Assembly: GCA_030603395.1 (NCBI GenBank) | Contig: JAUVXX010000005.1 | Location: 885-64,884, forward strand | Source: a bacterium | Lineage (GTDB): Bacteria; Patescibacteriota; Minisyncoccia; Minisyncoccales; CG1-02-41-26 | Direction: 5' to 3' | DNA length: 64,000 nucleotides | The notes under the pieces: model-generated | The model's input: only the letters and a program-made list of their open reading frames with translations | Told to the model about the DNA's origin: nothing | The model's database searches: none | Shown here: positions 2,908-24,915 of the stretch, one piece after another | Position numbering within the stretch: position 1 is the stretch's first letter | How the letters are laid out: each line of letters starts with the position of its first letter | Translations under genes and position numbers: made by a program

Positions 2908-4007
2908 GATATTCTTAAATTAGCCTCAGCTTTGATTTTTTGCCAATTTTTTGAAGCTTCTTTTCTGCGGAAATAAGCTGTTATGCCAATCATGACTGCG
3001 TTGTCGGTGCAGAATTGGATATTAGGTGTTAGATATTGGATATTGGGAATTTCTTTTTTAATTTTTTCTTTGAGTTGTTTTCGCAGTTCATTGTTGGCGG
3101 TCACCCCTCCACCAAGCACTATACTTTTTGCCTTGCAATCCTTGGCTGCTTTGATAGTTTTTTTGATTAAAACATCAATAATCGCCTGCTGGATTTTCTT
3201 GGCCATCTCTCTAACATATTCTTTTGAAGCTCTCACTTTTTTTGACCTCTTTTTAAACTCGTATAGAACAGCAGTTTTGAGTCCAGAAAAAGAGAAATCG
3301 TAATCTTTACTATTTATCATCGGCCGTGGCAACTTTGTTCGATATTTCGCTGTCGCTTCAGGCGACTCCCCGTAGGGTCCTATTTCGACATTTCGACATT
3401 TCGCTGCTGCAGCCGCTATGGCGGGTCCTCCCGGATAGGGGAGGCCCAAAACTCTGGCTGTTTTGTCAAAACATTCTCCGGCTGCGTCATCCCTGGTTTC
3501 ACCAATAATTTTGTATTTACCAATATCATTCATCAAAATCAATTGAGTATGCCCACCACTCACCACCAAGCACACAGCCGGAAAGATTTGACATTTGAGC
3601 TTTGACATTTGACATTTGCCAACAAAGTTGGCAAAGATGTGTGCTTCCATGTGATTAACAGGAATAATCGGCAGGTTCCTTTGTTGAGCTAAATCTTTGG
3701 CAAAATTTATCCCGGTCCATAAACACGGTTCAAGCCCCGGTCCAATCGTTACTGCCACAGCGTCAATTTTCGGTTTCTTAGCTTTATTTAAAGCTTTTTT
3801 AAGCACCACTGGCAGATTCTTTTGGTGTTCTCTTTTAGCCAAACTTGGATAGACCCCTCCGTATTTTTGGTGAATTTTCACTTGCGAGGAAACAACGTTT
3901 GAGAGGATTTCAAATTTAGCATTTTTGACATTTGAGCTTTGACATTTGACATTTAGTATACTTATGCAGGTATCGTCACACGAAGTGTCAATGGCTAAGA
4001 TAATCAT
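2904..4007 (-). CDS. tsaD: tRNA N6-adenosine threonylcarbamoyltransferase TsaD (Kae1/Gcp family) with three in-frame inserts
   Basis: 367-aa ORF; ILAIDTSCDDT, VSGGHTQL, GLPYPGGP, DFSFSGLKTAV family motifs; 4-nt overlap with valS. Confidence 0.9.
   Translation of the reverse strand: MIILAIDTSCDDTCISILNVKCQSSNVKNAKFEILSNVVSSQVKIHQKYGGVYPSLAKREHQKNLPVVLKKALNKAKKPKIDAVAVTIGPGLEPCLWTGINFAKDLAQQRNLPIIPVNHMEAHIFANFVGKCQMSKLKCQIFPAVCLVVSGGHTQLILMNDIGKYKIIGETRDDAAGECFDKTARVLGLPYPGGPAIAAAAAKCRNVEIGPYGESPEATAKYRTKLPRPMINSKDYDFSFSGLKTAVLYEFKKRSKKVRASKEYVREMAKKIQQAIIDVLIKKTIKAAKDCKAKSIVLGGGVTANNELRKQLKEKIKKEIPNIQYLTPNIQFCTDNAVMIGITAYFRRKEASKNWQKIKAEANLRIS
3344..3406. repeat. 9-nt direct repeats (atttcgctg) 54 nt apart, bounding a GC-rich core inside tsaD
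   Basis: atttcgctg at 3344-3352 and 3398-3406. Confidence 0.85.
3587..3617. repeat. 31-nt repeat tttgacatttgagctttgacatttgacattt, copy A (in tsaD)
   Basis: identical to 3924-3954. Confidence 0.95.
3924..3954. repeat. 31-nt repeat tttgacatttgagctttgacatttgacattt, copy B (in tsaD, different frame)
   Basis: identical to 3587-3617. Confidence 0.95.
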
Positions 4008-4013
4008 GTCTTT

Positions 4014-4101: not shown

Positions 4102-4110
4102 TTATTGAGC

Positions 4111-4183: not shown

Positions 4184-4192
4184 CTTTTAAAT

Positions 4193-5743: not shown

Positions 5744-5745
5744 AT

Positions 5746-7902: not shown

Positions 7903-7973
7903 GAAAAAATTGAATATTAATCCAATTCAGCTTACAATTTAATTATACGTTAAACAAGTTCTAATCCAAAAAT

Positions 7974-8279
7974 ATGAAATACAACAAACTTGTTCGGGAT
8001 AAAATTCCTGAGATTATTAAGCAGAAAGGGAAAGTCCCAATTACCCATATTGCTGATGATGAAGAATATTGGCAAAAATTGAAAGAAAAACTTAAGGAAG
8101 AAGTTGATGAATTTTTAAAAGATAACAAGGAAGAGGAACTTGCTGATATTTTAGAGATAATTTATGCTATTTGTGATTTTAAGAAAATTGACAAACAAGA
8201 ATTGGAAATTCGCCGCAAAAAGAAAGCCGAAAAAAGAGGCAGTTTCAAAAACAAAATAATCCTCGACGAAACAAAATAA
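7974..8279 (+). CDS. MazG-like all-alpha nucleoside triphosphate pyrophosphohydrolase (small house-cleaning type)
   Basis: 101-aa ORF; MKYNKLVRDKIPEII...EELADILEIIYA pattern typical of this family. Confidence 0.65.
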   Translation: MKYNKLVRDKIPEIIKQKGKVPITHIADDEEYWQKLKEKLKEEVDEFLKDNKEEELADILEIIYAICDFKKIDKQELEIRRKKKAEKRGSFKNKIILDETK

Positions 8280-8283
8280 TAGT

Positions 8284-9165
8284 ATGAAAACATCGTTTCA
8301 TAGAATTTATACCGAGGACAAACTGGAATTACATGGACTTCTTTATGAGCCTGATAAAAAAACAACAACAGTTTTAGCTCAAGTTCATGGAATGGGAGGA
8401 AATTTTTATCAGGATAGTTTTTTCGATGCCTTAGCGAAAATTCTTCCAGAAAATGATATTGCCTTTTGCCCATTTAATAATCGGGGAGCTGGGCTTATAA
8501 CTACTTTTAGGAGACCAAAGAGTAATGGAGAGGTTGAATATGTTAGATTTGGCACATCTAAAGAAAAATTTGAATATTGTGTTTTAGACATTAAGGCCCA
8601 TTTAGATTTTTTAGAAAAGCAAGGTTTTACTAATATTCATCTTTGTGGTCACAGTCTGGGGACCTGTAAAGTAGTTTATTATTTAGCAAAGACCCAAGAC
8701 CAAAGAGTAAGATCTTTAATTTTACTTTCTCCGATTGATATGCTGGGATTGGTAAGGATGGACAAAAAGAGGTTTGAAGAAGAAATTAGTACTGCAGAGA
8801 AAATGGTAAGTGAAGAAAGGGGTGATAAGTTAATGCCTAGAGATGTTTGGGACGAATATCCTATTACCGCCAACAGTTATCTCGATCTTTTCGGAGATAG
8901 TTCTGAGACAGCCATCTTCAATTTTTTTAACCCCAAGGATAAATTTGAAAAGCTTTCCAGAATCTCTTACCCGATTTTTAGTGTGATGGGCAAAAAAGAT
9001 GATTCTTTCGTCGTGCCAATAGAGGATACTATGAGGATTATTAAGGAAAAAGCAAAATCGTCTCCGAGGTGCGAGTATAAAATTTTAGGCGATGCTAATC
9101 ACAACTATATAGGATACGAGCAACAACTTGCTGATACTATATTAAAATGGATAAGCAGTTTTTGA
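8284..9165 (+). CDS. alpha/beta-fold hydrolase
   Basis: 293-aa ORF; nucleophile elbow GHSLG; late His (GDANHNY). Confidence 0.65.
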   Translation: MKTSFHRIYTEDKLELHGLLYEPDKKTTTVLAQVHGMGGNFYQDSFFDALAKILPENDIAFCPFNNRGAGLITTFRRPKSNGEVEYVRFGTSKEKFEYCVLDIKAHLDFLEKQGFTNIHLCGHSLGTCKVVYYLAKTQDQRVRSLILLSPIDMLGLVRMDKKRFEEEISTAEKMVSEERGDKLMPRDVWDEYPITANSYLDLFGDSSETAIFNFFNPKDKFEKLSRISYPIFSVMGKKDDSFVVPIEDTMRIIKEKAKSSPRCEYKILGDANHNYIGYEQQLADTILKWISSF

Positions 9166-9244
9166 GCAATTTTGATAAACTCTCCGGCTTTCAAAAAAGA
9201 AAACGAAATTAGTAGATTATAACTTTATTCAAAATATTTTTAAC

Positions 9245-9859
9245 ATGCCGGTTTTGATAAATTTTAAAATTTGCGATAACTCTGAAGATTGTAACGGGAT
9301 AGAGGTTTGCCCAACTGGTGCCTTTTATTGGGATAAAAAGAAAAAAACCATTGCCATTGATAATTCCAAATGTACAAGTTGCGGAGTATGTGAGGAAGCT
9401 TGTCCGGTTGGCGCAATCAGGGTAGCCAAAGATGAGAAAGAATACCAGAGAATAAAAAAAGAAATCGAAAAAGACACGAGGAAACTTTCTGACTTATTTA
9501 TTGACAGATACGGAGCCACTCCAATCCACCCGGCTTTTTTAATTCCCCAAAGCAAGTTTGACGTCCAGATTTTAAGGTCAACTAGACCGGCTGTCGTGGA
9601 GCTATTTAACAACGAATCAATAGAGTGTTTGCTTTACTCTATTCCTATAAAAGAATTATTTAAGAATGTTGATATGAAATACAAAAAAATGGAAATAAAA
9701 GAAAAATCTTTACTTAAGAAATATAAAGTAAAGAAACTTCCTTCTTTATTATTTTTCAAAGATGGAAAATTGGTGGCTAAAATAGATGGCTATTACGATA
9801 ATAAACAGAAAAAAGAAATAAAAGAGAAGGTAAACAAAATTCTTTCTAAAATTAAGTAA
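9245..9859 (+). CDS. 4Fe-4S ferredoxin domain fused to a thioredoxin-like fold lacking CxxC
   Basis: 204-aa ORF; CTSCGVCEEACP cluster motif plus upstream Cys; C-terminal KKLPSLLFFKDGKLV Trx-like strand pattern. Confidence 0.6.
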   Translation: MPVLINFKICDNSEDCNGIEVCPTGAFYWDKKKKTIAIDNSKCTSCGVCEEACPVGAIRVAKDEKEYQRIKKEIEKDTRKLSDLFIDRYGATPIHPAFLIPQSKFDVQILRSTRPAVVELFNNESIECLLYSIPIKELFKNVDMKYKKMEIKEKSLLKKYKVKKLPSLLFFKDGKLVAKIDGYYDNKQKKEIKEKVNKILSKIK

Positions 9860-9877
9860 TATCTCATAAAACAAAAA

Positions 9878-9905
9878 TACAGAGGACTGTCCTCTGTATT
9901 TTTTG
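9878..9905 (+). terminator. rho-independent terminator
   Basis: tacagaggac-t-gtcctctgta followed by T-run 9899-9905. Confidence 0.75.
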
Positions 9906-9977
9906 TGCCCTCGAGAGGAGTCGAACCTCTATCACAAACTCCGCAAGTTCGCATTCTGTCCATTGAACTACGAGGGC
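9906..9977 (-). tRNA. tRNA-Arg (anticodon GCG)
   Basis: hand fold of reverse complement: acceptor GCCCTCG/CGAGGGC, anticodon stem CGAAC/GTTTG, loop TTGCGGA, T arm AGAGG-TTCGACT-CCTCT. Confidence 0.8.
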
Positions 9978-10056
9978 ATTCCTCTTTGACGATATCATAA
10001 AAATTATTATTTTTCCAGTTGATTTATTAAAATTTTGATGGTAAGGTAGAAATACA

Positions 10057-10143
10057 GGAGGAGTCGGATAACGGTATTCCAGTGGCTTGCTAAGCCATCG
10101 CCGTGTAAAAAGCGGCTTGTGAGTTCGAATCTCACCTCCTCCG
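10057..10143 (+). tRNA. tRNA-Ser (anticodon GCU), long variable arm
   Basis: acceptor GGAGGAG/CTCCTCC, anticodon loop TTGCTAA, variable arm CGCCGTGTAAAAAGCGGCT, T loop TTCGAAT. Confidence 0.88.
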
Positions 10144-10151
10144 CTTTTTTA

Positions 10152-10233
10152 GGAGGGGTCGGATAATGGTATTCCACTAGTTTTGAAAACTAGCACCCGA
10201 AAGGGTATGCGAGTTCGAATCTCGCCCCCTCCG
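10152..10233 (+). tRNA. tRNA-Ser (anticodon UGA), long variable arm
   Basis: acceptor GGAGGGG/CCCCTCC, anticodon stem CTAGT/ACTAG, loop TTTGAAA, T loop TTCGAAT. Confidence 0.88.
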
Positions 10234-10238
10234 CATAA

Positions 10239-10267
10239 CAAAAAACCGACACCAGCCGGTTTTTTTG
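10239..10267. terminator. possible bidirectional terminator (A-run, short GC core, T-run)
   Basis: aaaaaaccg-acaccagc-cggtttttt between tRNA-Ser and convergent comF. Confidence 0.4.
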
Positions 10268-10984
10268 TTACTCTCTTGCGACAACAATGCCCCAGACTTC
10301 TTTGGCCCCTGCTTTCCTAAGAATTCTGGCGCACTCTTCCATGGTACTTCCGGTGGTGAAAACGTCATCAACTAAAAATACTCTCTTTCCCTGAATTTCC
10401 TGGGGATTCTTAACCGTAAAGACCCCTCTAATATTTTTCTCTCTTTTTTCTTTCTTAAGCTCAACTTGTGGTTGAGTTTGTTTAGTTTTTATGAGATTAT
10501 TATTTAACAAGGGGATTTTGTAGAATTTGGAAAGTACTTGAGCGATTAAAGCTGCTTGATTGAAGCCTCGCCATCTTTCCCTGAATTTGGCAAGGGGAAT
10601 GGGTAAAAAAACCGAGTTTTCCTTGTTTTGGGAAATTAGCTTGTTCTCTGACAGAAGAAAATGTGCTATGATTAAAGAAGTTAGGGGAGAAGTTAGATTT
10701 TTTAAAAAAGGTTCATATTTGAATTTGCTGATTAATTTTTTAACCAGAGGATTTTGATAGGAGGTGGCAGAAAATATTCCAGAGAGCTTCATTTTTCGAT
10801 GGCTGAGACAGGTCCCCTCTGTAAAAACTCTTTTAGGAGTTTGACAGAAAGGGCAGTAGTTAAATTCTGAAAGGTCAATTGAGCTTAAACAATCTTCACA
10901 GACAAGGGCTCCTTCCCTTTTACAGTTAAGGCAGAATTGTGGAAAGAGAATGTGGACTAAAAATTTTTTCAGCATAGTAATCAT
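10268..10984 (-). CDS. comF: ComF-family phosphoribosyltransferase-domain protein (competence)
   Basis: N-terminal double CxxC Zn ribbon (CLNC...CEDC, CPFC), C-terminal PRT motif VFLVDDVFTTGST; ORF opens at GTG 10996, first ATG at 10984. Confidence 0.8.
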   Translation of the reverse strand: MITMLKKFLVHILFPQFCLNCKREGALVCEDCLSSIDLSEFNYCPFCQTPKRVFTEGTCLSHRKMKLSGIFSATSYQNPLVKKLISKFKYEPFLKNLTSPLTSLIIAHFLLSENKLISQNKENSVFLPIPLAKFRERWRGFNQAALIAQVLSKFYKIPLLNNNLIKTKQTQPQVELKKEKREKNIRGVFTVKNPQEIQGKRVFLVDDVFTTGSTMEECARILRKAGAKEVWGIVVARE

Positions 10985-11004
10985 TAATATTACCACAATA
11001 TTTG

Positions 11005-11013
11005 TGCTAAAAT
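11005..11013 (+). promoter_or_regulatory. extended -10 element of the pilus operon, leaderless geometry
   Basis: TGcTAAAAT, then 7 nt (aaaaaaa), then ATG 11021. Confidence 0.45.
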
Positions 11014-11020
11014 AAAAAAA

Positions 11021-12076
11021 ATGGGGATTTTTTCAAAAAGATGTTTGGGAATAGATATCGGAGCTTCTTCCATAAAGGTAGTTGAGATTTCTGGTGGTGG
11101 CAGGAGAAAGAAATTGGAAAATTATGCTGAGTTCCAGCTTCCCTTACAAGAGCCGCCTTTAAGTTTGTTTCATAAAAAGGAGCTGATTCTTTTGAGTGAA
11201 GAAACTTCAGAGATTTTGGAATGTTTATTCAAAAAAGCCAAGATTAAAAAAAAGAAAGTTGCTCTCTCTCTTCCTGATTTCTCTACTTTCTTTACCACTT
11301 TTAATTTGCCCCCGATGACGGAAGCCGAAGTCCCTCAAGCGGTAGAATTTGAAGCGCGCCATCATGTCCCCCTGCCTTTATCTGAAGTTACCTTTGACTG
11401 GCAGGTAATTGAAAGAGAGAAGATTCTTCCCGGAATTAAATTAAAGATATTGTTGGTGGCTATTCCCAATCGGGTTTTGGCAAGTTATCAAAAATTAGCC
11501 ACTTTATCCCAACTTGAGGTTGAAGGAATGGAAGCTGAAGTTTTTGGGCTGATGCGCTCTTCCATCCCTAAGGAACTCAATAAAAAGCCCGTTTGTTTGG
11601 TGGACATCGGCTGGGAGAGCACCACCGTCAGTATTGCCCAGGGAGGAACCCTGAGGTTGAGTCACAGCTTTGATATTTCGGGCAAGGAGTTTACCAGAGC
11701 TCTTTGTGAAAAGTTGAATATTGACTGGGAAAAAGCTGAAAATCTCAAGAAAGAGCACGGCTTAGATCCCGAAAAAAAAGAAATTTTTGATGCTTTAGTT
11801 CCCAAGGCAAATGAAATTGCCAGAGAAATAAATGGGGTTTGTCAAAGTTTTCAGCAAACCGAAGGGAAAAAAGCAGAGGATGTTATTCTGGCCGGGGGAA
11901 TGGTTTCCCTTTTTGGTCTAAGGGAATACCTGAATGTCCAGCTTAAAAAAAATATCCAGATTACCGATCCTTTTGCCAAGGTTTCTTTTCCTTCCATCTT
12001 AAAACCCCGGCTCCAGAAATTAGGACCTTCTTTTGGGGTCGCTCTGGGGGTAGCTTTAAGGGGTATCACCACTTAA
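11021..12076 (+). CDS. pilM: type IV pilus assembly protein PilM (actin-like ATPase fold)
   Basis: 351-aa ORF; GIDIGASSIKVVE phosphate-1 motif; head of pilus operon. Confidence 0.85.
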   Translation: MGIFSKRCLGIDIGASSIKVVEISGGGRRKKLENYAEFQLPLQEPPLSLFHKKELILLSEETSEILECLFKKAKIKKKKVALSLPDFSTFFTTFNLPPMTEAEVPQAVEFEARHHVPLPLSEVTFDWQVIEREKILPGIKLKILLVAIPNRVLASYQKLATLSQLEVEGMEAEVFGLMRSSIPKELNKKPVCLVDIGWESTTVSIAQGGTLRLSHSFDISGKEFTRALCEKLNIDWEKAENLKKEHGLDPEKKEIFDALVPKANEIAREINGVCQSFQQTEGKKAEDVILAGGMVSLFGLREYLNVQLKKNIQITDPFAKVSFPSILKPRLQKLGPSFGVALGVALRGITT

Positions 12077-12080
12077 TTAT

Positions 12081-12623
12081 ATGCCAAAAGAACCATTTGC
12101 CAGAATTATTCCCAAACCCAGACCGAAAACACCATTTTCTGTTAGCTTTCTTTTTTACTTTGCCATCTTGCTGGTAATTATTTCAATTGGAGGGTTTTTC
12201 TTTTTGGAAAGCCAGATTTCTTCCCAGAGAGAAAGGAAAGAAGAACTGGAGAGACAAATCGTAGAATTGGAAGGAGAGGAAGAGAAAAAATTAGAAGAAG
12301 AAATTTTATCCTTTGGAGAAAAAATTAAAATTTTCAAGGAGATTTTTGCCAACCATAAAATTAGCTCAAATTTCCTTTCCCTGCTTGAAAGTTCCTGCCA
12401 CCAAAAAGTTCAATTGACCAGCTTAAATTTAGCTACTGAAAATGGTCGGGTTAATTTGCAGGGAAAAACTGAAAGCTTCCAAACCCTGGGGGAACAATTT
12501 CTCATTTTTTCTGAAAATGAGAAATTGGAAAACCTTATTTTATCTAACATCTCTTTGGATAGGGAGGGGAAGATTAACTTTAGCTTAATTTTCTCCCTTC
12601 TCTTGGAGGTTTTAAAGAAATGA
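12081..12623 (+). CDS. PilN-like bitopic pilus alignment protein
   Basis: 180-aa ORF; single N-terminal TM then coiled coil; position after pilM. Confidence 0.55.
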   Translation: MPKEPFARIIPKPRPKTPFSVSFLFYFAILLVIISIGGFFFLESQISSQRERKEELERQIVELEGEEEKKLEEEILSFGEKIKIFKEIFANHKISSNFLSLLESSCHQKVQLTSLNLATENGRVNLQGKTESFQTLGEQFLIFSENEKLENLILSNISLDREGKINFSLIFSLLLEVLKK

Positions 12624-13147
12624 AAAAAAGTTTTAGCATCCCTATTTTATTATTCGTAGTTTTACTTTTGGCGATTTTCCTTGTCTGGCCGCAATACCAG
12701 GAATTTAAAGATTTGAAGGAACAAGTTGACGAAAAACAAGCCGAACTTTCTGAAACTGAAGAATATCTTTCAGAGCTTAGTCAAATTTCAGAAAAGCTAA
12801 ATGATTATCAAGATTCTTTAAAGAAAATTGAGTCGGCTTTGCCTCAGGACTCTTCCTTGCCTTCTCTATTGAATTTCTTTCAGAAAGAAAGTTCAGAAAA
12901 TGGGCTTTTGTTAAAAAATATCAACCAGACAGAAGGAAAAAGAAAAGAAGAGCCAAAAGGAATTTTAGCCAAAGTTAAAGAAACCTACATTAATCTCAGT
13001 CTTACAGGGACCTATCCATCCTTGAAGGGGTTTCTGGAAAGCCTGGAGAAATCCTCAAGATTAATTGAAGTTGAAAATATTTCTATTGATACTGCCGGAG
13101 AAGAATTTCCAGAGTACAACATTTTAATTAAAGTTCATCACATGTAA
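12620..13147 (+). CDS. PilO-like bitopic pilus alignment protein
   Basis: 175-aa ORF; N-terminal TM, coiled coil, C-terminal ferredoxin-like region; operon position. Confidence 0.55.
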   Translation: MKKSFSIPILLFVVLLLAIFLVWPQYQEFKDLKEQVDEKQAELSETEEYLSELSQISEKLNDYQDSLKKIESALPQDSSLPSLLNFFQKESSENGLLLKNINQTEGKRKEEPKGILAKVKETYINLSLTGTYPSLKGFLESLEKSSRLIEVENISIDTAGEEFPEYNILIKVHHM

Positions 13148-13148
13148 C

Positions 13149-13406
13149 ATGCCAGGAATTGCGGAACAAAATAAAACTCTTAAATATTTAATTTGGGGTG
13201 TGGTCTTGGCAGGAATTATTATTCTAATTTACTCCTGGTGGTGGCGTCCCAAGCCTCTTTCTCTTCCTCCTGTTCCCAAACCTTTCCCATCCGTTAAGAT
13301 TGACTTTGAATTTCTGGAGAGCCAGGAAGTCAAAGATATTTTACCCTTTGAGGAGATTTCCCTCCCAGAAGAAGTTGGTCGAGAAAACCCCTTTGAACCC
13401 TACTAA
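13149..13406 (+). CDS. small single-pass, Pro-rich membrane protein, pilus-operon accessory
   Basis: 85-aa ORF; TM LIWGVVLAGIIILIY; operon position only. Confidence 0.4.
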   Translation: MPGIAEQNKTLKYLIWGVVLAGIIILIYSWWWRPKPLSLPPVPKPFPSVKIDFEFLESQEVKDILPFEEISLPEEVGRENPFEPY

Positions 13407-13428
13407 AAATTTATACTCTCCAGTACCT

Positions 13429-15156
13429 ATGGACCTTATTTCTCAATTAGTTAAACAAAGAAAATTAAAGAAAAGAGAGGGAGCTCAGTTGAAGATGGAA
13501 GCCAAGGAAAAAGAAAAGACCCAAGAGGAGTTAATTTTAGAGAAGAAAATTTTATCGGAGAATGCCCTATTTCAACTCAAAAGCAAACTGACCGGAACTC
13601 CTCTGCGAGAAACTCTGCCAGAGAAAATTCCCCCCGAGATTTTAAATATTATCCCCAGAGAGTCAGTGGAATATTATAAAATAGTCCCCCTGCTTTTAAG
13701 AAAAAAAGAAGAGGTTTTGGAGGTAGGCATGGTTTACCCTGATGACCCTAAAGCAGTGGAGGCCTTAAAATTTTTAACCAGGCAGCAAAAGTTACATCCC
13801 AAAATTTTTCTAATCACTTTCTCTAATTTCAGAAAATATCTTGAGCAATTCCGAGCTCCCAAAAAGGAAGTAGAGAAAGCTTTGGAAAGATTGGAAGAAG
13901 AAATCAGACCGGAAGGGGGAAAAGCCATAAAGAAAGCCGAATTTGAGAAATTGGTTGAGGAAGCTCCGGTTATCAAAATGGTAGGGGTTATTTTGCGCCA
14001 AGCTATTGAAGGCAAGGCTTCTGATATTCACATTGAGCCGACCAGGGAGAACGTCAGAGTCAGATACCGCTTAGATGGAATTTTGCACTCCTCCCTTATT
14101 TTGCCCTTAAAGGTTTTGCCAGCCATCGTGGCTCGCATTAAGATTCTAAGCCGGCTTAGAATTGACGAAACCAGAATTCCCCAGGACGGTAGGTTCTCTG
14201 CCAAGATTGGAGAGAAAACCATTGACTTTCGAGTTTCCACTTTTCCCACCACCTTGGGGGAGAAGGTAGCTATTAGAGTTCTTGATCCCACCGAGGGTCT
14301 AAAATCTTTAATTGATTTGGGTTTGAGTGAGAGAAATTTTAAGGTGGTCAAAGAAGCCGTCAAAAAGTCCTACGGCATGATTTTAGCTACCGGTCCCACT
14401 GGCTCCGGAAAAACCACCACCTTGTATTCACTTTTCCAGCTTTTAAACAAAGAAGGAGTGAACATTGTTACTTTGGAAGACCCGGTAGAGTATTTTATTG
14501 ACGGGGTTAACCAATCCCAGATTAGACCAGAAATTGAATATACCTTTGCCAAGGGTTTGCGGCAGATTGTCAGACAAGACCCTGATATTATTATGGTAGG
14601 GGAGGTTCGAGACGAAGAGACGGCCGCCTTAGCCATTCATGCTGCTTTAACCGGCCATTTGCTTTTGTCAACTTTGCACACCACCAATGTCCTTGGGGTT
14701 ATTTCTCGGTTAATTGATATGGGAGTGAAGCCATTTCTTATTCCTCCCACCTTGAGTTTAGCCATAAGCCAGAGATTGGTCCGTGCCCTTTGCCCTTTCT
14801 GTAAAAAGAGAGTGAGGGCTCAGGGAGAAGCAAAAGATTATATCTTAAGCAAACTTAAAAATTTACCAGCCAGTGTAGCTGAGAAAGTCAGGGTTGGCAA
14901 GACCATCTTTATCTATCAACCCCAGGGTTGCAAAAAATGTAATTCCAAGGGATATTCGGGAAGAACCGGAGTTTATGAAGTTATCAAAATGACCGATGCC
15001 TTGGCTGAAATAACCATTCAAAATCCAACTGAAAGTCAGATTCTAAAAGAGGCAAGAGCCCAGGGCATGGTTACCATGGAAGAAGAAGGGGTGTTAAAGG
15101 TTTTAAAAGGCATTACTTCCCTGGAGGAAGTGATGAGGGTTGCGGAAGAAAAGTAA
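13429..15156 (+). CDS. pilB: type IV pilus extension ATPase PilB (GspE family)
   Basis: T2SSE N-domain, Walker A GPTGSGKTTT, Asp/His boxes, tetracysteine CPFC...CKKC; ORF track opens at 13300 but ATG 13429 avoids overlap with upstream ORF. Confidence 0.9.
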   Translation: MDLISQLVKQRKLKKREGAQLKMEAKEKEKTQEELILEKKILSENALFQLKSKLTGTPLRETLPEKIPPEILNIIPRESVEYYKIVPLLLRKKEEVLEVGMVYPDDPKAVEALKFLTRQQKLHPKIFLITFSNFRKYLEQFRAPKKEVEKALERLEEEIRPEGGKAIKKAEFEKLVEEAPVIKMVGVILRQAIEGKASDIHIEPTRENVRVRYRLDGILHSSLILPLKVLPAIVARIKILSRLRIDETRIPQDGRFSAKIGEKTIDFRVSTFPTTLGEKVAIRVLDPTEGLKSLIDLGLSERNFKVVKEAVKKSYGMILATGPTGSGKTTTLYSLFQLLNKEGVNIVTLEDPVEYFIDGVNQSQIRPEIEYTFAKGLRQIVRQDPDIIMVGEVRDEETAALAIHAALTGHLLLSTLHTTNVLGVISRLIDMGVKPFLIPPTLSLAISQRLVRALCPFCKKRVRAQGEAKDYILSKLKNLPASVAEKVRVGKTIFIYQPQGCKKCNSKGYSGRTGVYEVIKMTDALAEITIQNPTESQILKEARAQGMVTMEEEGVLKVLKGITSLEEVMRVAEEK

Positions 15157-15532
15157 TTTTGTGAAACAAATTCTCTTAATTGAAGATGACCCGTTTTTGA
15201 TAGATATTTATAGCCAAAAATTGACCAAAGCCGGATTCAAAGTTGAGGTAGCCAAAAATGGAAAAAGCGCTCTGCAATCTCTCCGAGAGAGAAAGCCCCA
15301 GCTGGTAATCTTAGATATTGTTTTACCGGGGATTGAAGGCTGGGAGATTCTAAGAAAAATCAAAAAAGACCGTAGCTTAACTGGTTTAAAAGTAGTGGTG
15401 CTGAGTAATTTGGGACAGAAAGAGGAGGTGGAGAAAGGATTGAAATTGGGGGCAGTCAAATATTTAATTAAGGCTCACTATACCCCGGGCGAGGTCGTCA
15501 GGGAAATAGAAAAAGTCATAACTAATTCTTAA
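15140..15532 (+). CDS. stand-alone response-regulator receiver domain (CheY-like)
   Basis: 130-aa ORF; IEDD acidic pocket, LDIVLPG phospho-acceptor Asp context, VLSN, KYLIK. Confidence 0.85.
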   Translation: MRKKSNFVKQILLIEDDPFLIDIYSQKLTKAGFKVEVAKNGKSALQSLRERKPQLVILDIVLPGIEGWEILRKIKKDRSLTGLKVVVLSNLGQKEEVEKGLKLGAVKYLIKAHYTPGEVVREIEKVITNS

Positions 15533-15536
15533 ATCA

Positions 15537-16607
15537 ATGAACTATCCAACTCAACTCAAAAGACTTTTGGGGCTGGCTATCAAGAAAGAGGCCTCTGACC
15601 TCCACCTTTCGGTCGGTCACCCGCCAGTTTTGAGAATAATTGGCAACTTGTCTAATGTTGAGGGGGAAGGGGTGATCACTCCCAAAGATTCTCAAGGACT
15701 CGCTCTCAGCTTAATGGTACCTTCGCAGCAAGAAAAATTTTTAAAAGAAAAAGAAATAGATTTTGCTTATGAATTTGAAAAGAAAATCAGGTTCAGGGTA
15801 AATGCCTTTTTTCAGAGGGGATATGTCAGTATTGCTTTAAGGCTTATTCCTTCAAAAATCAAAACTATTGAGGAATTAAAGCTCCCGCCTATTTTACATA
15901 AATTTACCGAAGCTCCCCAGGGATTTGTTTTAATCACCGGAGCTTCCTCTCAGGGAAAATCTACCACTTTGGCTGCCTTAATTGATGAAATAAACCATCA
16001 GCGGAGGGAACATATCATTACTATTGAAGACCCCATTGAGTATGTCTTTCAGGGCGACAAATGTTTAATTGACCAAAGGGAGGTTGGGGTAGATACGCCA
16101 AGTTTTGCCAAAGCCCTGAGGTCCACCTTGCGGGAGGATCCGGATGTCATTATGGTTGGAGAGATGAGGGACCTTGAAACCATCTCAACCGCCATCACCG
16201 CAGCCGAAACCGGTCACCTTGTTTTTGCCACCTTGCATACCAATTCTGCCTCACAAACCATCCATCGAGCCATTGATGTTTTTTCTCCCCACCAACAAAA
16301 TCAGATAAGAGCTCAATTGTCGGGCTCTCTGTTGGGAGTGGTCTCTCAAAGATTGCTGCCTTCAATTAAGAAAGAGTTTGTGCCGGCTTGTGAGATTATG
16401 TTGTCTAATCATGCCGTGGCTAATTTAATTCGGGAGAACAAAATCCATGAGATTCCTTCCGTCATTGAAACTTCAGGGGAGATGGGAATGATTCCCTTCA
16501 ATAAGTCCTTAACCGAATTGGTCAGGAAAAAAGAAATTTCAAGAGAGACCGCCCTGCAATATTCCTTCAGCCCCAAGGATTTAGAAGCCCGACTCGAAAA
16601 AGCATGA
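15537..16607 (+). CDS. pilT: type IV pilus retraction ATPase PilT
   Basis: 356-aa ORF; Walker A GASSQGKSTT, TIEDPIEY, GEMRD, HLVFATLHT motifs. Confidence 0.9.
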   Translation: MNYPTQLKRLLGLAIKKEASDLHLSVGHPPVLRIIGNLSNVEGEGVITPKDSQGLALSLMVPSQQEKFLKEKEIDFAYEFEKKIRFRVNAFFQRGYVSIALRLIPSKIKTIEELKLPPILHKFTEAPQGFVLITGASSQGKSTTLAALIDEINHQRREHIITIEDPIEYVFQGDKCLIDQREVGVDTPSFAKALRSTLREDPDVIMVGEMRDLETISTAITAAETGHLVFATLHTNSASQTIHRAIDVFSPHQQNQIRAQLSGSLLGVVSQRLLPSIKKEFVPACEIMLSNHAVANLIRENKIHEIPSVIETSGEMGMIPFNKSLTELVRKKEISRETALQYSFSPKDLEARLEKA

Positions 16608-17824
16608 AATTTGCCTACAAAGCCAGAACCAAAGAGGGAAGAATTCAGAGAGGAACCATTGAGGCCTCTTCTCGTAAAGTTTGCCTTAGTATCCTGGAAA
16701 AATATGGATTTTACGTAACTTCCTTGCGGGAGGCAGGAAAGGGAGGATTTTTGATGGGAAAGATTTCTCTGCGAAAAACATCCGCCAAAGATATTGTCAG
16801 CTTCAGCCGTCAATTCTCAGTGATGCTAAAATCCGCCATTCCTCCGGTTGAGGCCTTGCGGGCTCAGGTGGCTCAGACGGAAAACCCGGTTTTTCGAGAG
16901 AAAATTTTAAAAATGGCAGAGACAGTGGAGACCGGAAGCACGCTTTCGCAGGCCTTTTCTCTCCATCCAAATATCTTTGACCCTTTTTTTATAAACATAG
17001 TCAAATCTGGAGAGGCGACCGGTAAGGTGGCCGACTCCCTGGATTATTTAGCCAACCATTTAGAATCAGAATACAATCTTTCGCAGAAAATAAGGGGAGC
17101 CATGATTTATCCTGCTTTTGTGATTGTGATTTTTATTGCCGCCTTCTTTTTGGTAACTTTTTTCATTGTTCCCCGATTGACTGAAGTTTTAGAGTCCTTT
17201 GGAGGAAAACTTCCCCTAAGCACAAGGTTGCTAATCCTTCTATCCGACTTTGTCAGGAAAGGCGGTTGGGTTGTTATCCTTGTCGTTTTTGGCTCATTAT
17301 TTTTTATTCCCCAGTATCTCAAGGGGTCTCCGAAGAGTAAAAATTTTTATGATAGAATTTCTCTGAAAATACCAATCCTGGGAGATTTTTATAAGAAAAT
17401 TTATCTTGTTCGCTTTTGTGAAAACCTTTCGGTGTTAATTAGAGCCGGCTTGCCCATAACTCAAGCTCTGAAAATAACCGAAGGAATCATAGGCAGCGAA
17501 GTTTACAAAAAAATTATCATTGAGGCGCAGGAAAGAGTAGCTCGGGGGGAGAAGATAAGTTCTGTCTTCTCGCAATATCCACAATACGTCACCACCTTCA
17601 CCACTCAAATGATTTCAACCGGAGAAGAAACCGGGAAGTTAGAACAAACCCTGATGAACGTGGTTAGTTTTTATCGAGCAGAAATAGAAAGGGCTGCTGA
17701 CAACCTGACCAGTATTTTAGAGCCACTTTTAATTGTGATTTTGGGAATTGGCATAGCCGTAATGGCAGTTTCAATTTTTATCCCTTTATTTCAAATGGGA
17801 ATGGGAGGCTTTGGAGCAATGTGA
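16604..17824 (+). CDS. pilC: type IV pilus platform protein PilC (GspF family)
   Basis: 406-aa ORF; two GspF repeats, three TM segments. Confidence 0.88.
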   Translation: MKFAYKARTKEGRIQRGTIEASSRKVCLSILEKYGFYVTSLREAGKGGFLMGKISLRKTSAKDIVSFSRQFSVMLKSAIPPVEALRAQVAQTENPVFREKILKMAETVETGSTLSQAFSLHPNIFDPFFINIVKSGEATGKVADSLDYLANHLESEYNLSQKIRGAMIYPAFVIVIFIAAFFLVTFFIVPRLTEVLESFGGKLPLSTRLLILLSDFVRKGGWVVILVVFGSLFFIPQYLKGSPKSKNFYDRISLKIPILGDFYKKIYLVRFCENLSVLIRAGLPITQALKITEGIIGSEVYKKIIIEAQERVARGEKISSVFSQYPQYVTTFTTQMISTGEETGKLEQTLMNVVSFYRAEIERAADNLTSILEPLLIVILGIGIAVMAVSIFIPLFQMGMGGFGAM

Positions 17825-17827
17825 AGC

Positions 17828-17908
17828 GTTTTGTCCAAGAGCGCAAGTCGCACGTAGCGCGATTGGCAACAAAACCTTTACCCCGCACATAAAGCGTTAT
17901 GTGCGGGG
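17828..17908 (+). other. GC-rich structured element (two stable hairpins) between pilC and the first pilin gene
   Basis: imperfect hairpin 17828-17875 (7+4+4 bp); perfect 11-bp stem ccccgcacata/tatgtgcgggg at 17881-17908. Confidence 0.5.
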
Positions 17909-17953
17909 TGTAAGAACTTGTAACGCTCCTTCGTCGCTAACAATTTCTAACAC

Positions 17954-18415
17954 ATGAAAAACAAAGGGTTCACTTTAATTGAATTATTGGTGGTTCTGGT
18001 TATTATTGGAATTTTAGCTTCAATTGTTTTGGTTCAATTTCCCGAGGCCATCAGGAGAGCCAGAGATGGTCGGGTTATTTCTGATATGGGTCAATTTAGA
18101 ACCCAAACCATAATTTTGTATAGCACCCAAGAAAGTTATGCTCAAGTTAATTGTACTGTTATAGGAACCCTATGCGATTGCTTGGATTCTACCATTGAGT
18201 ATCTCTGTAATGATATTGAACAAAATATTGCCCAGGGAGATGATTTGGTAACTTATGTTCAAAGTGATGGTCAGGGGTTTTGTGCGGCAGTTCATTTAGG
18301 GGGTTCTGGCAGATATTTTTGTGTAGATGGAGAATTACACGCCAAAGAATACGAAACTTTTCCTAACTTTTGCTTTCCTTCTTGTGAAATAATGAATAAT
18401 TGCAGTTGTGAATAA
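17954..18415 (+). CDS. type IV pilin, Cys-rich (10 Cys)
   Basis: class III signal MKNKG|FTLIELLVV with Glu+5. Confidence 0.88.
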   Translation: MKNKGFTLIELLVVLVIIGILASIVLVQFPEAIRRARDGRVISDMGQFRTQTIILYSTQESYAQVNCTVIGTLCDCLDSTIEYLCNDIEQNIAQGDDLVTYVQSDGQGFCAAVHLGGSGRYFCVDGELHAKEYETFPNFCFPSCEIMNNCSCE

Positions 18416-18520
18416 CTTGACTTGACTGTATTTTTAAAAAGATAAAAAATAGTATATAATAAAGTATAAAGTAAAAACAAAAAAGGTCGCTTTTTCTCAA
18501 AAAATAATCAAACCAAGAAA

Positions 18521-19000
18521 ATGAAGTTACAAAAATCGAAAGGTTTCACCTTAATTGAATTATTGGTAGTTATTGCCATTATTGGAATTTTAGCTTCAAT
18601 CGTTTTGGTGAGTTTCCCGGGAGCTACCAAGAAAGCAAGGGACTCAAGAATTATTAGCGCTATTGGCCAAGCCCGAGTCGTCATGACTTATATTAATGCT
18701 AACGATGGAGACTACGATGCTTTTGATTGTGATCATACCGAGATGGATTCATTGTGTAAAGAGATTGACAACAATTACGGTACAGATACTAAGGACGACA
18801 AGATCCCGGAGCCGGTTATTGCAACGAATGCGGCAAGTGGTGCTACGGCAGCTTGCATATACTCTCCATTAAATGTGAAAGGCACTTATTGGTACTGCGG
18901 TGACAGCACTGGAATAGCCGGTTTCACGACCACCGATCCGGGCGGCACAGGCTATTGTGTAGATGGCACAACTGCTGTTTGCCCATCTGTTACTAGCTAA
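18521..19000 (+). CDS. type IV pilin (6 Cys)
   Basis: MKLQKSKG|FTLIELLVV prepilin signal. Confidence 0.88.
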   Translation: MKLQKSKGFTLIELLVVIAIIGILASIVLVSFPGATKKARDSRIISAIGQARVVMTYINANDGDYDAFDCDHTEMDSLCKEIDNNYGTDTKDDKIPEPVIATNAASGATAACIYSPLNVKGTYWYCGDSTGIAGFTTTDPGGTGYCVDGTTAVCPSVTS

Positions 19001-19030
19001 TAGTATCACCGAATAAGATTCCAACTTAAA

Positions 19031-19062
19031 ATTGCCCGGGATTTCTCTCCCGGGCAATTTTT
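19031..19062 (+). terminator. strong rho-independent terminator after pilin genes
   Basis: attgcccggga-tttctc-tcccgggcaat (11 bp) followed by ttttt. Confidence 0.85.
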
Positions 19063-19082
19063 GTTAGAATGAAAATACGAAT

Positions 19083-19892
19083 ATGTTTTATTTCATCATT
19101 TTTGTTTTCGGGGCCTGCATAGGTAGTTTTTTAAATTGTGTAATTTACCGATTAAAAGAAAAACAAAGTTTTCTCTCCGGCACGTCTTTTTGTCCCAAAT
19201 GCCTTCATCAATTAGGTTTCTTTGATTTAATTCCAGTGTTAAGTTTTATCTTCTTGAAGGGAAAATGTAGATATTGCGGCCAGAATATCTCTACTCAGTA
19301 CCCACTTGTCGAAATAGCAACAGGTGGGCTATTTCTCCTAATTTTCAATTTTCAACAGTTCAGCCCTGAGTTCACTGCCGAAGGGTTTTCAATTTTCAAT
19401 GAATTTTCAATTTTCAATTTTAAAAATTTTATTACCACTCTTTATTTATTAATAATCAGTTGTCTTTTAATCATCATTTTCGTCTATGATTTAAAACATT
19501 ATATTATTCCGGATAAAATAGTTTATCCGGCCATTGCCACTGCATTAATTTTCAATTTTCAAAAAACGACTTTTGGCTCCTCGCTCTTAGCAGGGGGAGG
19601 GGCAGCTTTATTCTTTTTCTTGTTGTGGCTGGTATCTCGCGGCAAGTGGATGGGTTTGGGTGACGCCAAATTGGCATTTCTGATGGGGCTTTTTCTGGGC
19701 TCACCAAATATTTTAACAGCCGTGTTCTCAGCTTTTTTAATCGGTGCTATAATGGGAATAGTATTGGTAATGTTTGGTAAGAAAACCCTAAAGAGCCAGG
19801 TTCCTTTCGGACCTTTTCTGGTGGTGGGAACGTTTATTGCTCTTTTTTGGGGACGAGAAATAATTAAGTGGTACTTAGGTCTTGTAACCTAA
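19083..19892 (+). CDS. pilD: prepilin peptidase PilD (A24 aspartic peptidase)
   Basis: N-terminal CPKC...CRYC Zn motif; catalytic contexts DLKHYIIPD and GLGDAKL. Confidence 0.9.
   Translation: MFYFIIFVFGACIGSFLNCVIYRLKEKQSFLSGTSFCPKCLHQLGFFDLIPVLSFIFLKGKCRYCGQNISTQYPLVEIATGGLFLLIFNFQQFSPEFTAEGFSIFNEFSIFNFKNFITTLYLLIISCLLIIIFVYDLKHYIIPDKIVYPAIATALIFNFQKTTFGSSLLAGGGAALFFFLLWLVSRGKWMGLGDAKLAFLMGLFLGSPNILTAVFSAFLIGAIMGIVLVMFGKKTLKSQVPFGPFLVVGTFIALFWGREIIKWYLGLVT
19341..19421. repeat. attttcaattttcaa copies flanking a GC-rich core inside pilD
   Basis: copies at 19341-19355, 19386-19399, 19402-19421 (a fourth at 19547-19562); core cagttcagccctgagttcactgccgaaggg at 19356-19385. Confidence 0.85.
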
Positions 19893-19898
19893 AATTTT

Positions 19899-20414
19899 AT
19901 GCACAAAGGATTCACCCTAATTGAACTTTTGGTTACCATGACAATTATAGGGATACTCTCCTCAGTTTTATTTTTAGGGAGAGGAGCAGAGGAGAAAAGG
20001 TTGGCGCTGGGTAGATCAATTTTTCAATTGTCTCAGGACCTAAGGGAGGTTCAGGGATTGGCCATGGGTTTTCAGGAGGAATCCTGTCCGGATGGAGCAG
20101 CCACTGGCTTTGGCATTTATTTTCATCAAGTTTCTTTTCCAGAATCTTATCTTTTATTTGCTGACTGTAATAATAATCAGTATAAAGACAGTTCTGACGT
20201 AATCTTGAGAGAAGTCAAATTAGAGAAGGACGTCCAGATTCAAAGCTTATCTTCCTCTCCCTTGAATATTGTTTTTGTTCCTCCGGAGCCCGCCACTTTT
20301 ATAGGCGGGGTTGAGTCGGGAGTAGAGGGAGTGATAACCATTTCTTTAAAATCAGATTCCTCAAAACAAAAGGTCTTAAGAGTTAATACAGCTGGTAGAA
20401 TCGAAATAGAATAA
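19899..20414 (+). CDS. minor pilin / pseudopilin (GspH/FimT-like)
   Basis: MHKG|FTLIELLV prepilin signal. Confidence 0.75.
   Translation: MHKGFTLIELLVTMTIIGILSSVLFLGRGAEEKRLALGRSIFQLSQDLREVQGLAMGFQEESCPDGAATGFGIYFHQVSFPESYLLFADCNNNQYKDSSDVILREVKLEKDVQIQSLSSSPLNIVFVPPEPATFIGGVESGVEGVITISLKSDSSKQKVLRVNTAGRIEIE

Positions 20415-21799: not shown

Positions 21800-24915
<3,116 letters not shown>

What the first reader, a model, noticed from the sequence alone, without database searches (positions are those of the whole stretch)
19341..19562. pilD carries a GC-rich core flanked by repeated attttcaattttcaa units
attttcaattttcaa-like copies lie at 19341-19355, 19386-19399 and 19402-19421, with a fourth at 19547-19562. 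The first two bracket the 30-nt GC-rich core cagttcagccctgagttcactgccgaaggg (19356-19385). The protein reads LIFNFQ[QFSPEFTAEGFSIFNEFSIFNFKNF]ITTLY and later ALIFNFQKTTF. The insert falls between the N-terminal Zn-binding module and the first catalytic Asp (DLKHYIIPD), in a cytoplasmic connector of A24 peptidases. The architecture (repeat, foreign-looking core, repeat) parallels the tsaD 3344-3406 insert.
Basis: partly seen in the sequence, partly recalled or inferred. Interest (0 to 1): 0.6.

Follow-up and report, generated by a model that had tools for sequence, protein, structure and literature searches.

The report
Tiny 30-base mobile insert in pilD
The GC-rich "core" inside this prepilin-peptidase gene is a slightly decayed copy of a nearly invariant 30-base DNA module found at over a hundred unrelated places in uncultured bacteria of at least two phyla, often in frame inside essential genes, and I found no description of it in the literature I could search.

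Summary
pilD (19083-19892, +) carries a 69-nt in-frame insert (19356-19424), a 30-nt GC-rich core plus 39 nt of TTTTCAA-type units. Its three closest relatives lack it.

The core is not a local oddity. It differs at 2 of 30 positions from a consensus, CAGTTCGGCCCTGAGCTCACTGCCGAAGGG. That consensus occurs in at least 120 metagenome contigs, in 111-113 distinct contexts, with contig GC from 32% to 65%. It is found in both orientations and in all four stop-free frames, in intergenic DNA and inside genes such as recG, polA, ligA, cysS, a Mur ligase gene and hypF.

The usual landing site is TGAG^CTCA, which is also the element's own centre, so copies nest inside each other. In AT-rich Patescibacteria the element lands at AA^TT inside 7-nt tandem arrays, as here.

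The tsaD insert is a second, unrelated core family with the same habit. It shows a strain-level presence/absence polymorphism in another pilD.

A planctomycete-like HypF carries exactly the 10-codon core, while 90 of 96 relatives have the empty site.

The mobilising enzyme is unknown. Distant RAYT-like Y1 transposases occur on some contigs but are not linked to the element. The closest known analogues are intragenic REPs, Rickettsia RPEs and cyanobacterial SDRs, and it fails the defining tags of REPs.

The parts
19083..19892 (+). pilD, a prepilin peptidase (A24 family) of 269 aa, the host gene
   Evidence: ORF. Pfam A24_N_bact covers residues 8-88 and Peptidase_A24 covers 123-226. Homologues.
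19341..19355 (+). Native ATTTTCAATTTTCAA encoding (L)IFNFQ at the end of TM2. It is the landing pad and is not part of the insert.
   Evidence: The same 15 nt is present in the empty-site relative L002. The 'NFQ' is conserved in most PilDs.
19356..19385 (+). 30-nt core CAGTTCAGCCCTGAGTTCACTGCCGAAGGG (QFSPEFTAEG). It is a copy of the dispersed 30-mer with two changes from consensus (G7A and C17T).
   Evidence: Searches give the consensus and 111 contexts. In one search the window copy has lost the 6-bp stem (-1.4 against -5.1 kcal/mol).
19386..19424 (+). 39-nt heptamer array TTTTCAA TTTTCAA TGAA TTTTCAA TTTTCAA TTTTAAA (FSIFNE FSIFNFK), an in-frame expansion of the native unit
   Evidence: The same FSIFN(E/Q)FSIFNFQ allele occurs without any core in many PilDs.
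19547..19562 (+). Second native (L)IFNFQ heptamer pair at the end of the next outward helix, unexpanded here and expanded in many relatives
3350..3380 (-). Second core family inside tsaD: GGACCCTACGGGGAGTCGCCTGAAGCGACAG (GPYGESPEATA), forming two small hairpins
   Evidence: It is 19/19 identical to the L003 pilD core and related to the L004 pilD core in the opposite orientation. Fold is -7.5 kcal/mol, z -2.8 to -3.3. It falls at a gap against solved TsaD 6nak_B.
3382..3403 (-). Octamer array ATTTCGAC x2.8 flanking the tsaD core. CGAAATA is repeated on both sides of the core.
3586..3618 (-). AT-rich heptamer module in tsaD, read as KCQMSKLKCQ
   Evidence: (family D6). It falls at a gap against 6nak_B.
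3924..3954 (-). Identical 31-nt copy of the same module in tsaD, read in another frame as NVKCQSSNVK
   Evidence: (D6, 100% identity).

Best explanation
The pilD segment records two separate DNA-level events in a loop of the protein that tolerates extra residues.

First, the native sequence ATTTTCAATTTTCAA (LIFNFQ) expanded by replication slippage. Only increments that keep the reading frame survive (21 nt = FSIFNFQ; 18 nt = FSIFNE). This produced the FSIFNEFSIFNF(Q/K) allele that many Patescibacteria PilDs carry.

Second, a 30-nt non-coding module was copied into the array at an AA^TT junction. The module is a very small dispersed and evidently mobile element with consensus CAGTTCGGCCC-TGAG|CTCA-CTGCCGAAGGG. 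It consists of two 15-nt near-inverted halves that form a modest hairpin. It normally lands in the middle of the palindromic octamer TGAG^CTCA, which it also carries at its own centre, so copies nest inside one another. It also lands in hairpin loops and tandem arrays.

Insertions into protein loops are tolerated because the module is exactly 10 codons long and four of its six frames have no stop codon. The pilD copy has since drifted (G7A breaks the stem).

Shown: the module's identity, abundance, site preference, nesting, in-frame occupancy of many genes, empty orthologous sites, and presence in at least two phyla.

Inferred: that a trans-acting enzyme copies it into DNA that is transiently single-stranded (hairpin tips, slipped arrays). 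A distant RAYT/IS200-like HUH tyrosine transposase is the most plausible candidate and is unproven.

The confidence of 0.75 applies to the identity of the core as a copy of a dispersed, mobile DNA module sitting in a slippage array. The enzyme assignment alone deserves about 0.25-0.3.
For: Insert status: P0002, P0003 and P0004 (74-78% identity) read LIFNFQ|NFITT with no insert. L002 shows the empty site at the DNA level.

My own estimate is that only a few matches would be expected by chance. These fall in 111-113 distinct contexts. The 9 bases outside the search pattern are 92-99% conserved. Contig GC runs from 0.32 to 0.65. Both orientations and all four open frames are used, inside ORFs of up to about 1000 aa (RecG, Pol I, LigA, CysRS, a Mur ligase, HypF, IleRS-like, PpsA-like).

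Site preference: the left flank ends T70 G66 A91 G90 (counts out of 111) and the right flank starts C84 T87. The junction is AG|CT in 57 of 111 contexts and AA|TT in 10. Eleven contexts are AT-rich tandem arrays, including four further pilD copies.

Nesting: the 30-mer is split exactly at TGAG|CTCA by another 27-30 nt element in L044, L047 and L120, and several contigs hold two copies.

Empty sites elsewhere: in HypF of a Sedimentisphaerales-like contig, 90 of 96 homologues read ENCRQ|DIFAA and only the query has +PFGSELRAEL.

Unbiased conservation: PilD copies found through protein homology have cores 24-28/30 identical against flanks at 39-68%.

Second family: the tsaD-type core occurs in the window's tsaD, in the L003 and L004 pilD (both orientations) and in other Patescibacteria MAGs. 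P0047 and P0051 are essentially identical apart from the residues around the 33-nt indel.

Arrays: there is an excess of period 7-8 arrays, the unit is locus-specific and derived from native codons, and the arrays sit at gaps against solved TsaD.

Enzyme hint: Y1_Tnp genes whose best NCBIfam match is the REP-associated tyrosine transposase model lie on L006/L007, L030/L078 and L124.
Against: No mobilising enzyme is tied to the 30-mer. The Y1 genes are flanked by their own, different hairpins (ACAGAGG...CCTCTGT and TACAGGGGG...CCCCCTGTA). Their NCBIfam scores (42-48 bits) are below the 80-bit cutoff, and the window has no Y1 gene.

The hairpin of the 30-mer is not statistically unusual (z -0.9).

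The one strain-level filled/empty pair comes with a patch of 13 substitutions beside the indel. That points to allele exchange by homologous recombination rather than a transposition event caught in the act.

The same core sits at the same pilD site in the window, L006, L008 and L096. That could reflect one old insertion followed by losses rather than repeated insertions.

The near-invariance of the 30-mer is partly an ascertainment effect, since 21 of the 30 positions were fixed by the search pattern.

Copy number in the source genome is unknown. There is one copy in the 64 kb held.
Confidence: 0.75

Rival explanations
1. Vertical history only. The core entered pilD once in an ancestor of many Patescibacteria. 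It has since been inherited, exchanged by homologous recombination, and precisely lost through recombination between the flanking heptamers. The window copy would then be an old relic rather than a lineage-specific insertion.
For: [quoted passage not shown] The window copy is decayed. The filled and empty alleles L004 and L138 differ by a recombination-like patch. Direct heptamer repeats on both sides would permit precise deletion.
Against: The core is 80-93% identical where the flanks are 39-68% identical, which is odd for an unconstrained loop inherited vertically over that distance. The three nearest relatives all lack both the array and the core. Different core families occupy the same pilD site in other lineages, so the site is hit repeatedly. 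This rival does not dispute what the element is, only when it arrived.
Confidence: 0.15
2. Purely local origin. The whole segment, core included, arose in place by slippage and point mutation of a low-complexity loop, with no foreign DNA involved.
For: The flanking units are native-derived and slippage-prone. The loop length is highly variable among PilDs.
Against: The 30-mer occurs with 28/30 identity or better in more than 110 unrelated contexts, in other genes, frames, orientations and phyla.
Confidence: 0.02
3. Selected function. The module is kept because it does something, for example as a protein-binding site, an RNA structure, a DNA-uptake-like signal or a useful peptide, rather than being selfish DNA.
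For: Sequence conservation is far above that of the flanks and crosses phyla. The host carries a type IV pilus locus, and uptake sequences are known to accumulate in competent bacteria (general knowledge).
Against: It is translated in four different frames and also lies in intergenic DNA, so no single peptide can be the target of selection. No Rfam family matches. Uptake signals accumulate by substitution, not as clean 30-nt insertions against empty orthologous sites. The window copy has lost its stem.
Confidence: 0.07
4. Technical artefact. The 30-mer is a synthetic or chimeric sequence introduced during library preparation or assembly.
For: Near-identical sequence in very different genomic backgrounds. 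No copies in plasmids of cultured bacteria or in viral contigs.
Against: It was recovered by independent projects and assemblers: an NCBI MAG, ENA, JGI and Logan. It always preserves reading frames in long genes and shows natural variants, for example ACA, ACC or GCC at positions 22-24. It sits at specific target sequences and nests at its own centre.
Confidence: 0.01

Closest known systems
Intragenic REPs (repetitive extragenic palindromes, GTAG- or CGTC-tagged) and their RAYT transposases
   Same: They are 20-40 bp imperfect palindromes in high copy that sometimes lie inside genes, notably replication and repair genes, and add 10-30 residues. They are thought to be non-autonomous elements moved by HUH tyrosine transposases acting on single-stranded hairpins (Di Nocera 2013, PMC3733652). 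Distant RAYT-like genes flanked by their own hairpins exist on related CPR contigs.
   Different: The 30-mer has no GTAG or CGTC tag. Its stem is weak. It targets TGAG^CTCA and nests at its own centre. It is nearly invariant across phyla, whereas REP families are mostly species- or genus-specific. No RAYT gene is flanked by it. The tsaD-type core has an internal CCCC-GTAG-GG that is not at an end.
Cyanobacterial small dispersed repeats (SDR; Elhai et al. 2008, Genome Res 18:1484)
   Same: They are very small mobile repeats of tens of nucleotides with no coding capacity. SDR5 inserts precisely into a palindromic octamer, HIP1 (stated in Elhai 2015, PMC4390886). From memory only, some SDRs sit within heptameric tandem repeats.
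   Different: The host phylum and the sequences differ. The elements here are 30-35 nt and are common inside essential genes in frame. The 2008 paper could not be read, so the heptamer parallel is unverified.
Rickettsia palindromic elements (RPE)
   Same: They are selfish palindromic DNA inserted in frame into protein-coding genes, adding peptide segments in tolerant loops (cited; original description recalled from memory).
   Different: RPE-1 is about 100-150 bp, confined to Rickettsia and CGTC-tagged. The module here is 30 nt, self-nesting and found in more than one phylum.
Coding microsatellites and slipped-strand arrays (contingency loci)
   Same: The TTTTCAA and other 7-8 nt arrays behave like slippage-prone repeats. 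An excess of heptameric repeats in bacteria has been noted (PMC4692102 abstract).
   Different: These arrays lie in housekeeping genes and are seen only in frame-preserving lengths, so they are not phase-variation switches. Slippage cannot create the core.

Membership tests
REP (GTAG/CGTC-tagged palindromic repeats) | [quoted passage not shown] | tested here: not met
   The 30-mer consensus and the window copy contain no GTAG, CTAC, CGTC or GACG (direct reading of the sequence; definition). The tsaD-type core has GTAG, but it is internal, 5 nt from the end.
REP (GTAG/CGTC-tagged palindromic repeats) | Short (20-40 bp) imperfect palindrome forming a stable stem-loop | tested here: inconclusive
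   The 30-nt length fits. The consensus forms a 6-bp stem at -5.1 kcal/mol with z -0.9, and the window copy gives -1.4. The tsaD-type core forms two hairpins with z about -3.
REP (GTAG/CGTC-tagged palindromic repeats) | Cognate RAYT gene flanked by copies of the same repeat (REPtron) | tested here: not met
   The RAYT-like Y1 genes on L006 and L030 are flanked by other hairpins, not by the 30-mer. There is no Y1 gene in the window. Whole genomes were not available.
MITE | Terminal inverted repeats plus a target-site duplication, typically over 50-100 bp long | tested here: not met
   The element is 30 nt. There is no TSD in the main TGAG^CTCA contexts: direct flank repeats of 5 nt or more occur in 8% of contexts and come mostly from pre-existing arrays.
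Cyanobacterial SDR | 21-27 nt dispersed repeat inserted precisely into a specific short, often palindromic, site; cyanobacterial | tested here: inconclusive
   Precise insertion at the centre of a palindromic octamer is met. Size, sequence and host differ. The defining paper was not readable.
Rickettsia palindromic element | About 100-150 bp palindromic element inserted in frame in Rickettsia genes | tested here: not met
   In-frame intragenic insertion is met. Size and taxon are not.
Simple slippage array (coding microsatellite) | Head-to-tail copies of a locally derived unit whose copy number varies among orthologues | tested here: met
   This holds for the flanking heptamers only. The unit is present natively in the empty allele. 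Copy number varies among PilDs in frame-keeping steps. There is an excess of period 7-8 arrays. It does not hold for the core.
Prepilin peptidase A24 (host gene) | N-terminal Cys-rich domain plus a GxGD-type aspartyl protease domain with two catalytic Asp | tested here: met
   Pfam PF06750 (110 bits) and PF01478 (68 bits). C37, C40, C62, C65, D136 and the G-x-G-D194 motif are invariant in the alignment.

The most novel reading that the evidence does not exclude
The pilD core belongs to an undescribed superfamily of 30-nt self-targeting 'Russian-doll' elements (grammar N3-TTCGR-N3-TGAG|CTCA-N3-YCGAA-N3). One member is nearly invariant from Patescibacteria to Planctomycetota. That would imply a widespread, still unidentified, highly sequence-specific insertion or DNA-writing machinery. 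These elements, together with 7-8 nt arrays, would then be a major and ongoing source of in-frame peptide insertions in essential enzymes of CPR bacteria.
Probability: 0.4. Interest if true: 0.85.

Novelty: new variant of a known kind. Interest (0 to 1): 0.7.

Why it matters
If this holds, it would be one of the smallest mobile DNA units known (10 codons). It has a defined palindromic target, which is its own centre, and it crosses phylum boundaries almost unchanged. That poses a sharp mechanistic question about what copies it.

It also offers a concrete, testable explanation for part of the unexplained short insertions seen in conserved proteins of Patescibacteria. It gives annotators a recognisable signature: the peptides QFGPELTAEG, SSALSSLPK, PFGSELRAEL and PSAVSSGPN. 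These should not be read as protein motifs.

For PilD itself the consequence is probably nil. The insert is a disordered loop between two membrane helices, at a position where relatives carry up to about 30 extra residues.

Tried and rejected
Looking up the source contig by exact protein failed twice, so the copy number in the source genome could not be measured.

The 30-mer has no match in 72,556 plasmids or in IMG/VR viral contigs, so a plasmid or phage vehicle is not supported.

Full-text searches for the 30-mer halves, its four peptides and related peptides recalled from memory (VRPELVEG, LSLSKGE, FDKLRANG) found nothing relevant. A search combining CPR terms with REP, MITE and tandem-repeat terms found no prior description. 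Elhai 2008 could not be opened.

Rfam gave no match for the element in ten element-rich loci or in window 2800-20000; it found only tRNAs and one sub-threshold miRNA hit.

A Y1 transposase link was considered and not established. The Y1 genes have their own flanking hairpins.

The genome-collection scan for the tsaD-type 18-mer gave only 9 loci, no more than chance overall by my estimate for a uniform-composition 18-mer. Two of them (GC 0.68 and 0.73) are probably chance. The AT-rich ones share the downstream hairpin and array context and are taken as real.

The S-P-E-x-T-A resemblance between the pilD and tsaD peptides was dropped, because the DNA sequences are unrelated.

I noticed an 11-nt match of the core to a type I-F CRISPR repeat recalled from memory and did not pursue it, as probable coincidence.

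The AlphaFold model of PilD was too weak (pLDDT 62.7) to use beyond secondary structure, so no fold search was run.

Full report
**Observation**

The ORF 19083-19892 (+) encodes a 269-aa prepilin peptidase. Pfam places A24_N_bact at residues 8-88 and Peptidase_A24 at residues 123-226. The core is unique in the window even with 3 mismatches allowed. Exact tandem arrays of period 7 and 8 are strongly over-represented in the window: 5 observed against 0.15 expected, and 2 against 0.02. They lie inside housekeeping genes: valS at 931-955; tsaD at 3014-46, 3382-3403, 3586-3618 and 3924-54; recG at 7473-7505; ligA at 23585-23613; and pilD.

**It is an insertion**

The three closest PilD proteins (74-78% identity) read LIFNFQ|NFITT. 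At the DNA level L002 reads ...ATTTTCAATTTTCAA|AATTTTACT.... The window therefore has a 69-nt, 23-codon insert at 19356-19424, made of the 30-nt core and 39 nt of heptamer-type units. The first heptamer pair and the following 'NF' are native.

Many more distant Patescibacteria PilDs carry FSIFN(E/Q)FSIFNFQ at this site and at the second LIFNFQ site. FSIFNFQ is (TTTTCAA)x3 translated. The array is thus a recurrent, frame-preserving expansion of the native codons. Dozens of PilDs carry various short foreign peptides embedded in those arrays.

**What the core is**

P0037 and P0054 carry QFGPELTT(E/G)G at the same site. Their DNA (L006/L007 and L008) is homologous to the window core.

Extraction gave 111-113 distinct contexts and the consensus CAGTTCGGCCCTGAGCTCACTGCCGAAGGG. 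The nine positions not specified in the search pattern are 92-99% conserved. The window copy differs at two positions.

Contigs range from 32% to 65% GC. The element occurs in both orientations and in all four stop-free frames, giving QFGPELTAEG, SSALSSLPK, PFGSELRAEL and PSAVSSGPN. It lies in intergenic DNA and inside long genes: RecG, DNA polymerase I, LigA, CysRS, a Mur ligase, HypF, an IleRS-like synthetase and a PpsA-like enzyme.

One such gene, HypF on a 53% GC contig, has as its closest named relative a Sedimentisphaerales (Planctomycetota) protein at 75% identity. Of 96 alignable homologues, 90 have the empty site ...ENC(R/P)Q|DIFAA.... Only the query has exactly ten extra codons. The same 30-mer is therefore present in at least two phyla, with clean empty orthologous sites in both.

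**Site preference and nesting**

The left flank ends T-G-A-G (A at -2 in 91 of 111 contexts, G at -1 in 90 of 111). The right flank begins C-T (84 and 87 of 111). The junction is AG|CT in 57 contexts and AA|TT in 10. The preferred target TGAG^CTCA is identical to the centre of the element itself (CAGTTCGGCCC TGAG|CTCA CTGCCGAAGGG).

Accordingly, many copies sit between look-alike half-elements, for example ...CGGTTCGGCTGAG|core|CTCACCGTCGAAGCC.... In L044, L047 and L120 the 30-mer is itself split exactly at TGAG|CTCA by another 27-30 nt element. Other copies sit at the tip of pre-existing hairpins, as in L053, L121, L130 and L134.

Eleven contexts are AT-rich tandem arrays of locus-specific units (TTTTCAA, ATTTTAA, TTTTTAG, TTCCCAA). 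They include four further pilD copies, one of them at the second LIFNFQ site (L041). There is no consistent target-site duplication.

**The tsaD parallel**

The tsaD core, read on the coding strand, is GGACCCTACGGGGAGTCGCCTGAAGCGACAG. It is unrelated in sequence to the pilD core. It matches the core in the pilD of L003 at 19 of 19 positions, and it is the same element as the L004/L005 pilD core in the opposite orientation.

It recurs in other Patescibacteria and Minisyncoccia MAGs next to heptamer arrays. In those copies a conserved head is followed by a stem that is kept while the loop varies.

P0047 and P0051 are essentially identical PilDs apart from the residues around an 11-codon indel that is exactly this core. 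At the DNA level 35 nt replace 'AA' inside the TTTTCAA array. The indel is accompanied by 13 substitutions in the 35 nt just upstream, while the rest of the roughly 800-nt gene is identical. This indicates that the alleles were exchanged by recombination with a diverged copy.

Aligned to solved T. maritima TsaD (6nak_B), the window's tsaD arrays and core fall at gaps in the solved protein.

**Structure and topology**

The consensus 30-mer folds into a 6-bp stem at -5.1 kcal/mol, which is not unusual against shuffled sequences. The window copy has lost the stem.

In a low-confidence AlphaFold model, residues 93-111 form an unstructured loop between helices 72-93 and 113-139. The Cys-rich loop before helix 72-93 is cytoplasmic and the catalytic Asp136 faces the cytoplasm (established PilD/TcpJ topology, recalled from memory).

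**Mechanism**

Shown: this is a DNA-level module that is copied as a unit. It has a defined site preference, it nests, and it is tolerated in coding loops because it is 10 codons long with four open frames.

Inferred: it is inserted into DNA that is transiently single-stranded, meaning palindrome centres, hairpin tips and slipped arrays.

The candidate enzyme is a distant RAYT/IS200-like Y1 transposase. Such genes lie on L006/L007, on L030/L078 (about 600 nt from a core) and on L124. Their best NCBIfam match is the REP-associated tyrosine transposase model, at 42-48 bits against a cutoff of 80. Each of these genes is flanked by its own, different hairpins, and the window has no Y1 gene. The link is therefore weak. 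I give the enzyme assignment about a 0.25-0.3 probability.

**Comparison with known systems**

Intragenic REPs, Rickettsia RPEs and cyanobacterial SDRs are the nearest kinds. The 30-mer fails the REP tag (no GTAG or CGTC) and fails the REPtron criterion. It is far smaller than RPEs and MITEs. It differs in host and sequence from SDRs.

No paper in the searchable library mentions the sequence or its peptides. It has no Rfam match. It is absent from plasmid and viral collections.

**Caveats**

The near-invariance is partly imposed by the exact-match search. The less biased PilD comparison gives cores 80-93% identical against flanks at 39-68%.

Copy number per genome and the taxonomy of most contigs are unknown.

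The same-site pilD copies may descend from one old insertion.

The literature library is incomplete, so a prior description cannot be excluded.

Noticed in passing
window 3587-3617 and 3924-3954 (also partly 931-955 in valS): An identical 31-nt AT-rich module TTTGACATTTGAGCTTTGACATTTGACATTT occurs twice in tsaD and is translated in two different frames (KCQMSKLKCQ and NVKCQSSNVK). It carries the same irregular unit TTTGAGC, which contains TGAG^CT. Heptamer arrays may therefore themselves be copied between sites rather than arising only by local slippage.
   Followed up: partly
window 5717-5750 and 9870-9903: Perfect hairpins ACAGAGGAC(A/T)GTCCTCTGT lie at gene ends. They resemble the hairpins (ACAGAGGnCCGTCCTCTGT) that flank the RAYT-like Y1 gene in L006, so they may be the cognate REPs of a Y1 transposase encoded elsewhere in this genome, or simply terminators.
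   Followed up: partly
L006:15190-15248: The spacer between the two hairpins upstream of the Y1 gene reads ...CCTCTG TGAGCTCA GAGTTCG CAGAGG.... It contains the octamer TGAGCTCA, which is the 30-mer's target and centre, and a GAGTTCG that resembles the 30-mer's start. This is a weak hint of a link between the Y1 locus and the element.
   Followed up: no
L030:2583-2598: The Y1 gene of L030 contains an internal in-frame copy of its own flanking hairpin sequence (GGGGTCGCCCCCTGTA).
   Followed up: no
P0122, P0123, P0134, P0180, P0200 (HypF relatives of L039): The HypF site that carries the 30-mer in L039 carries a different 36-aa repeat-rich insert (…TDTDDERRETGDIRHTIYDIRHT) in the nearest relatives. 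Others have a 27-aa insert a few residues upstream. This looks like an insertion hot spot in a planctomycete-like lineage.
   Followed up: partly
L111 (PpsA-like ORF) and L086 (RecG): Single genes carry several element types at once. In L111 these are GPYGESQATA (the tsaD-type core), the 30-mer nested in other GC-rich shells, and further repeat peptides. L048 (IleRS-like) has PPALFHNAKRAG twice next to the 30-mer.
   Followed up: no
window 4786-4793: There is an unoccupied TGAGCTCA octamer, the preferred target of the 30-mer, inside the ORF 4193-5743.
   Followed up: no
window 35582-35649, 46266-46304, 62157-62215: Other coding tandem repeats of period 9/27 (CTTGTGGGG), 10 (AGACGCTGAT x4) and 9/18 (ATTCTTACC x6.6) were not examined.
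   Followed up: no
window 58842-61107: Three diverged tandem copies (63-78% identity to the reference copy, spacing about 1034-1064 nt) of a roughly 1-kb unit, probably paralogous genes (repeat families D1 and D5).
   Followed up: no
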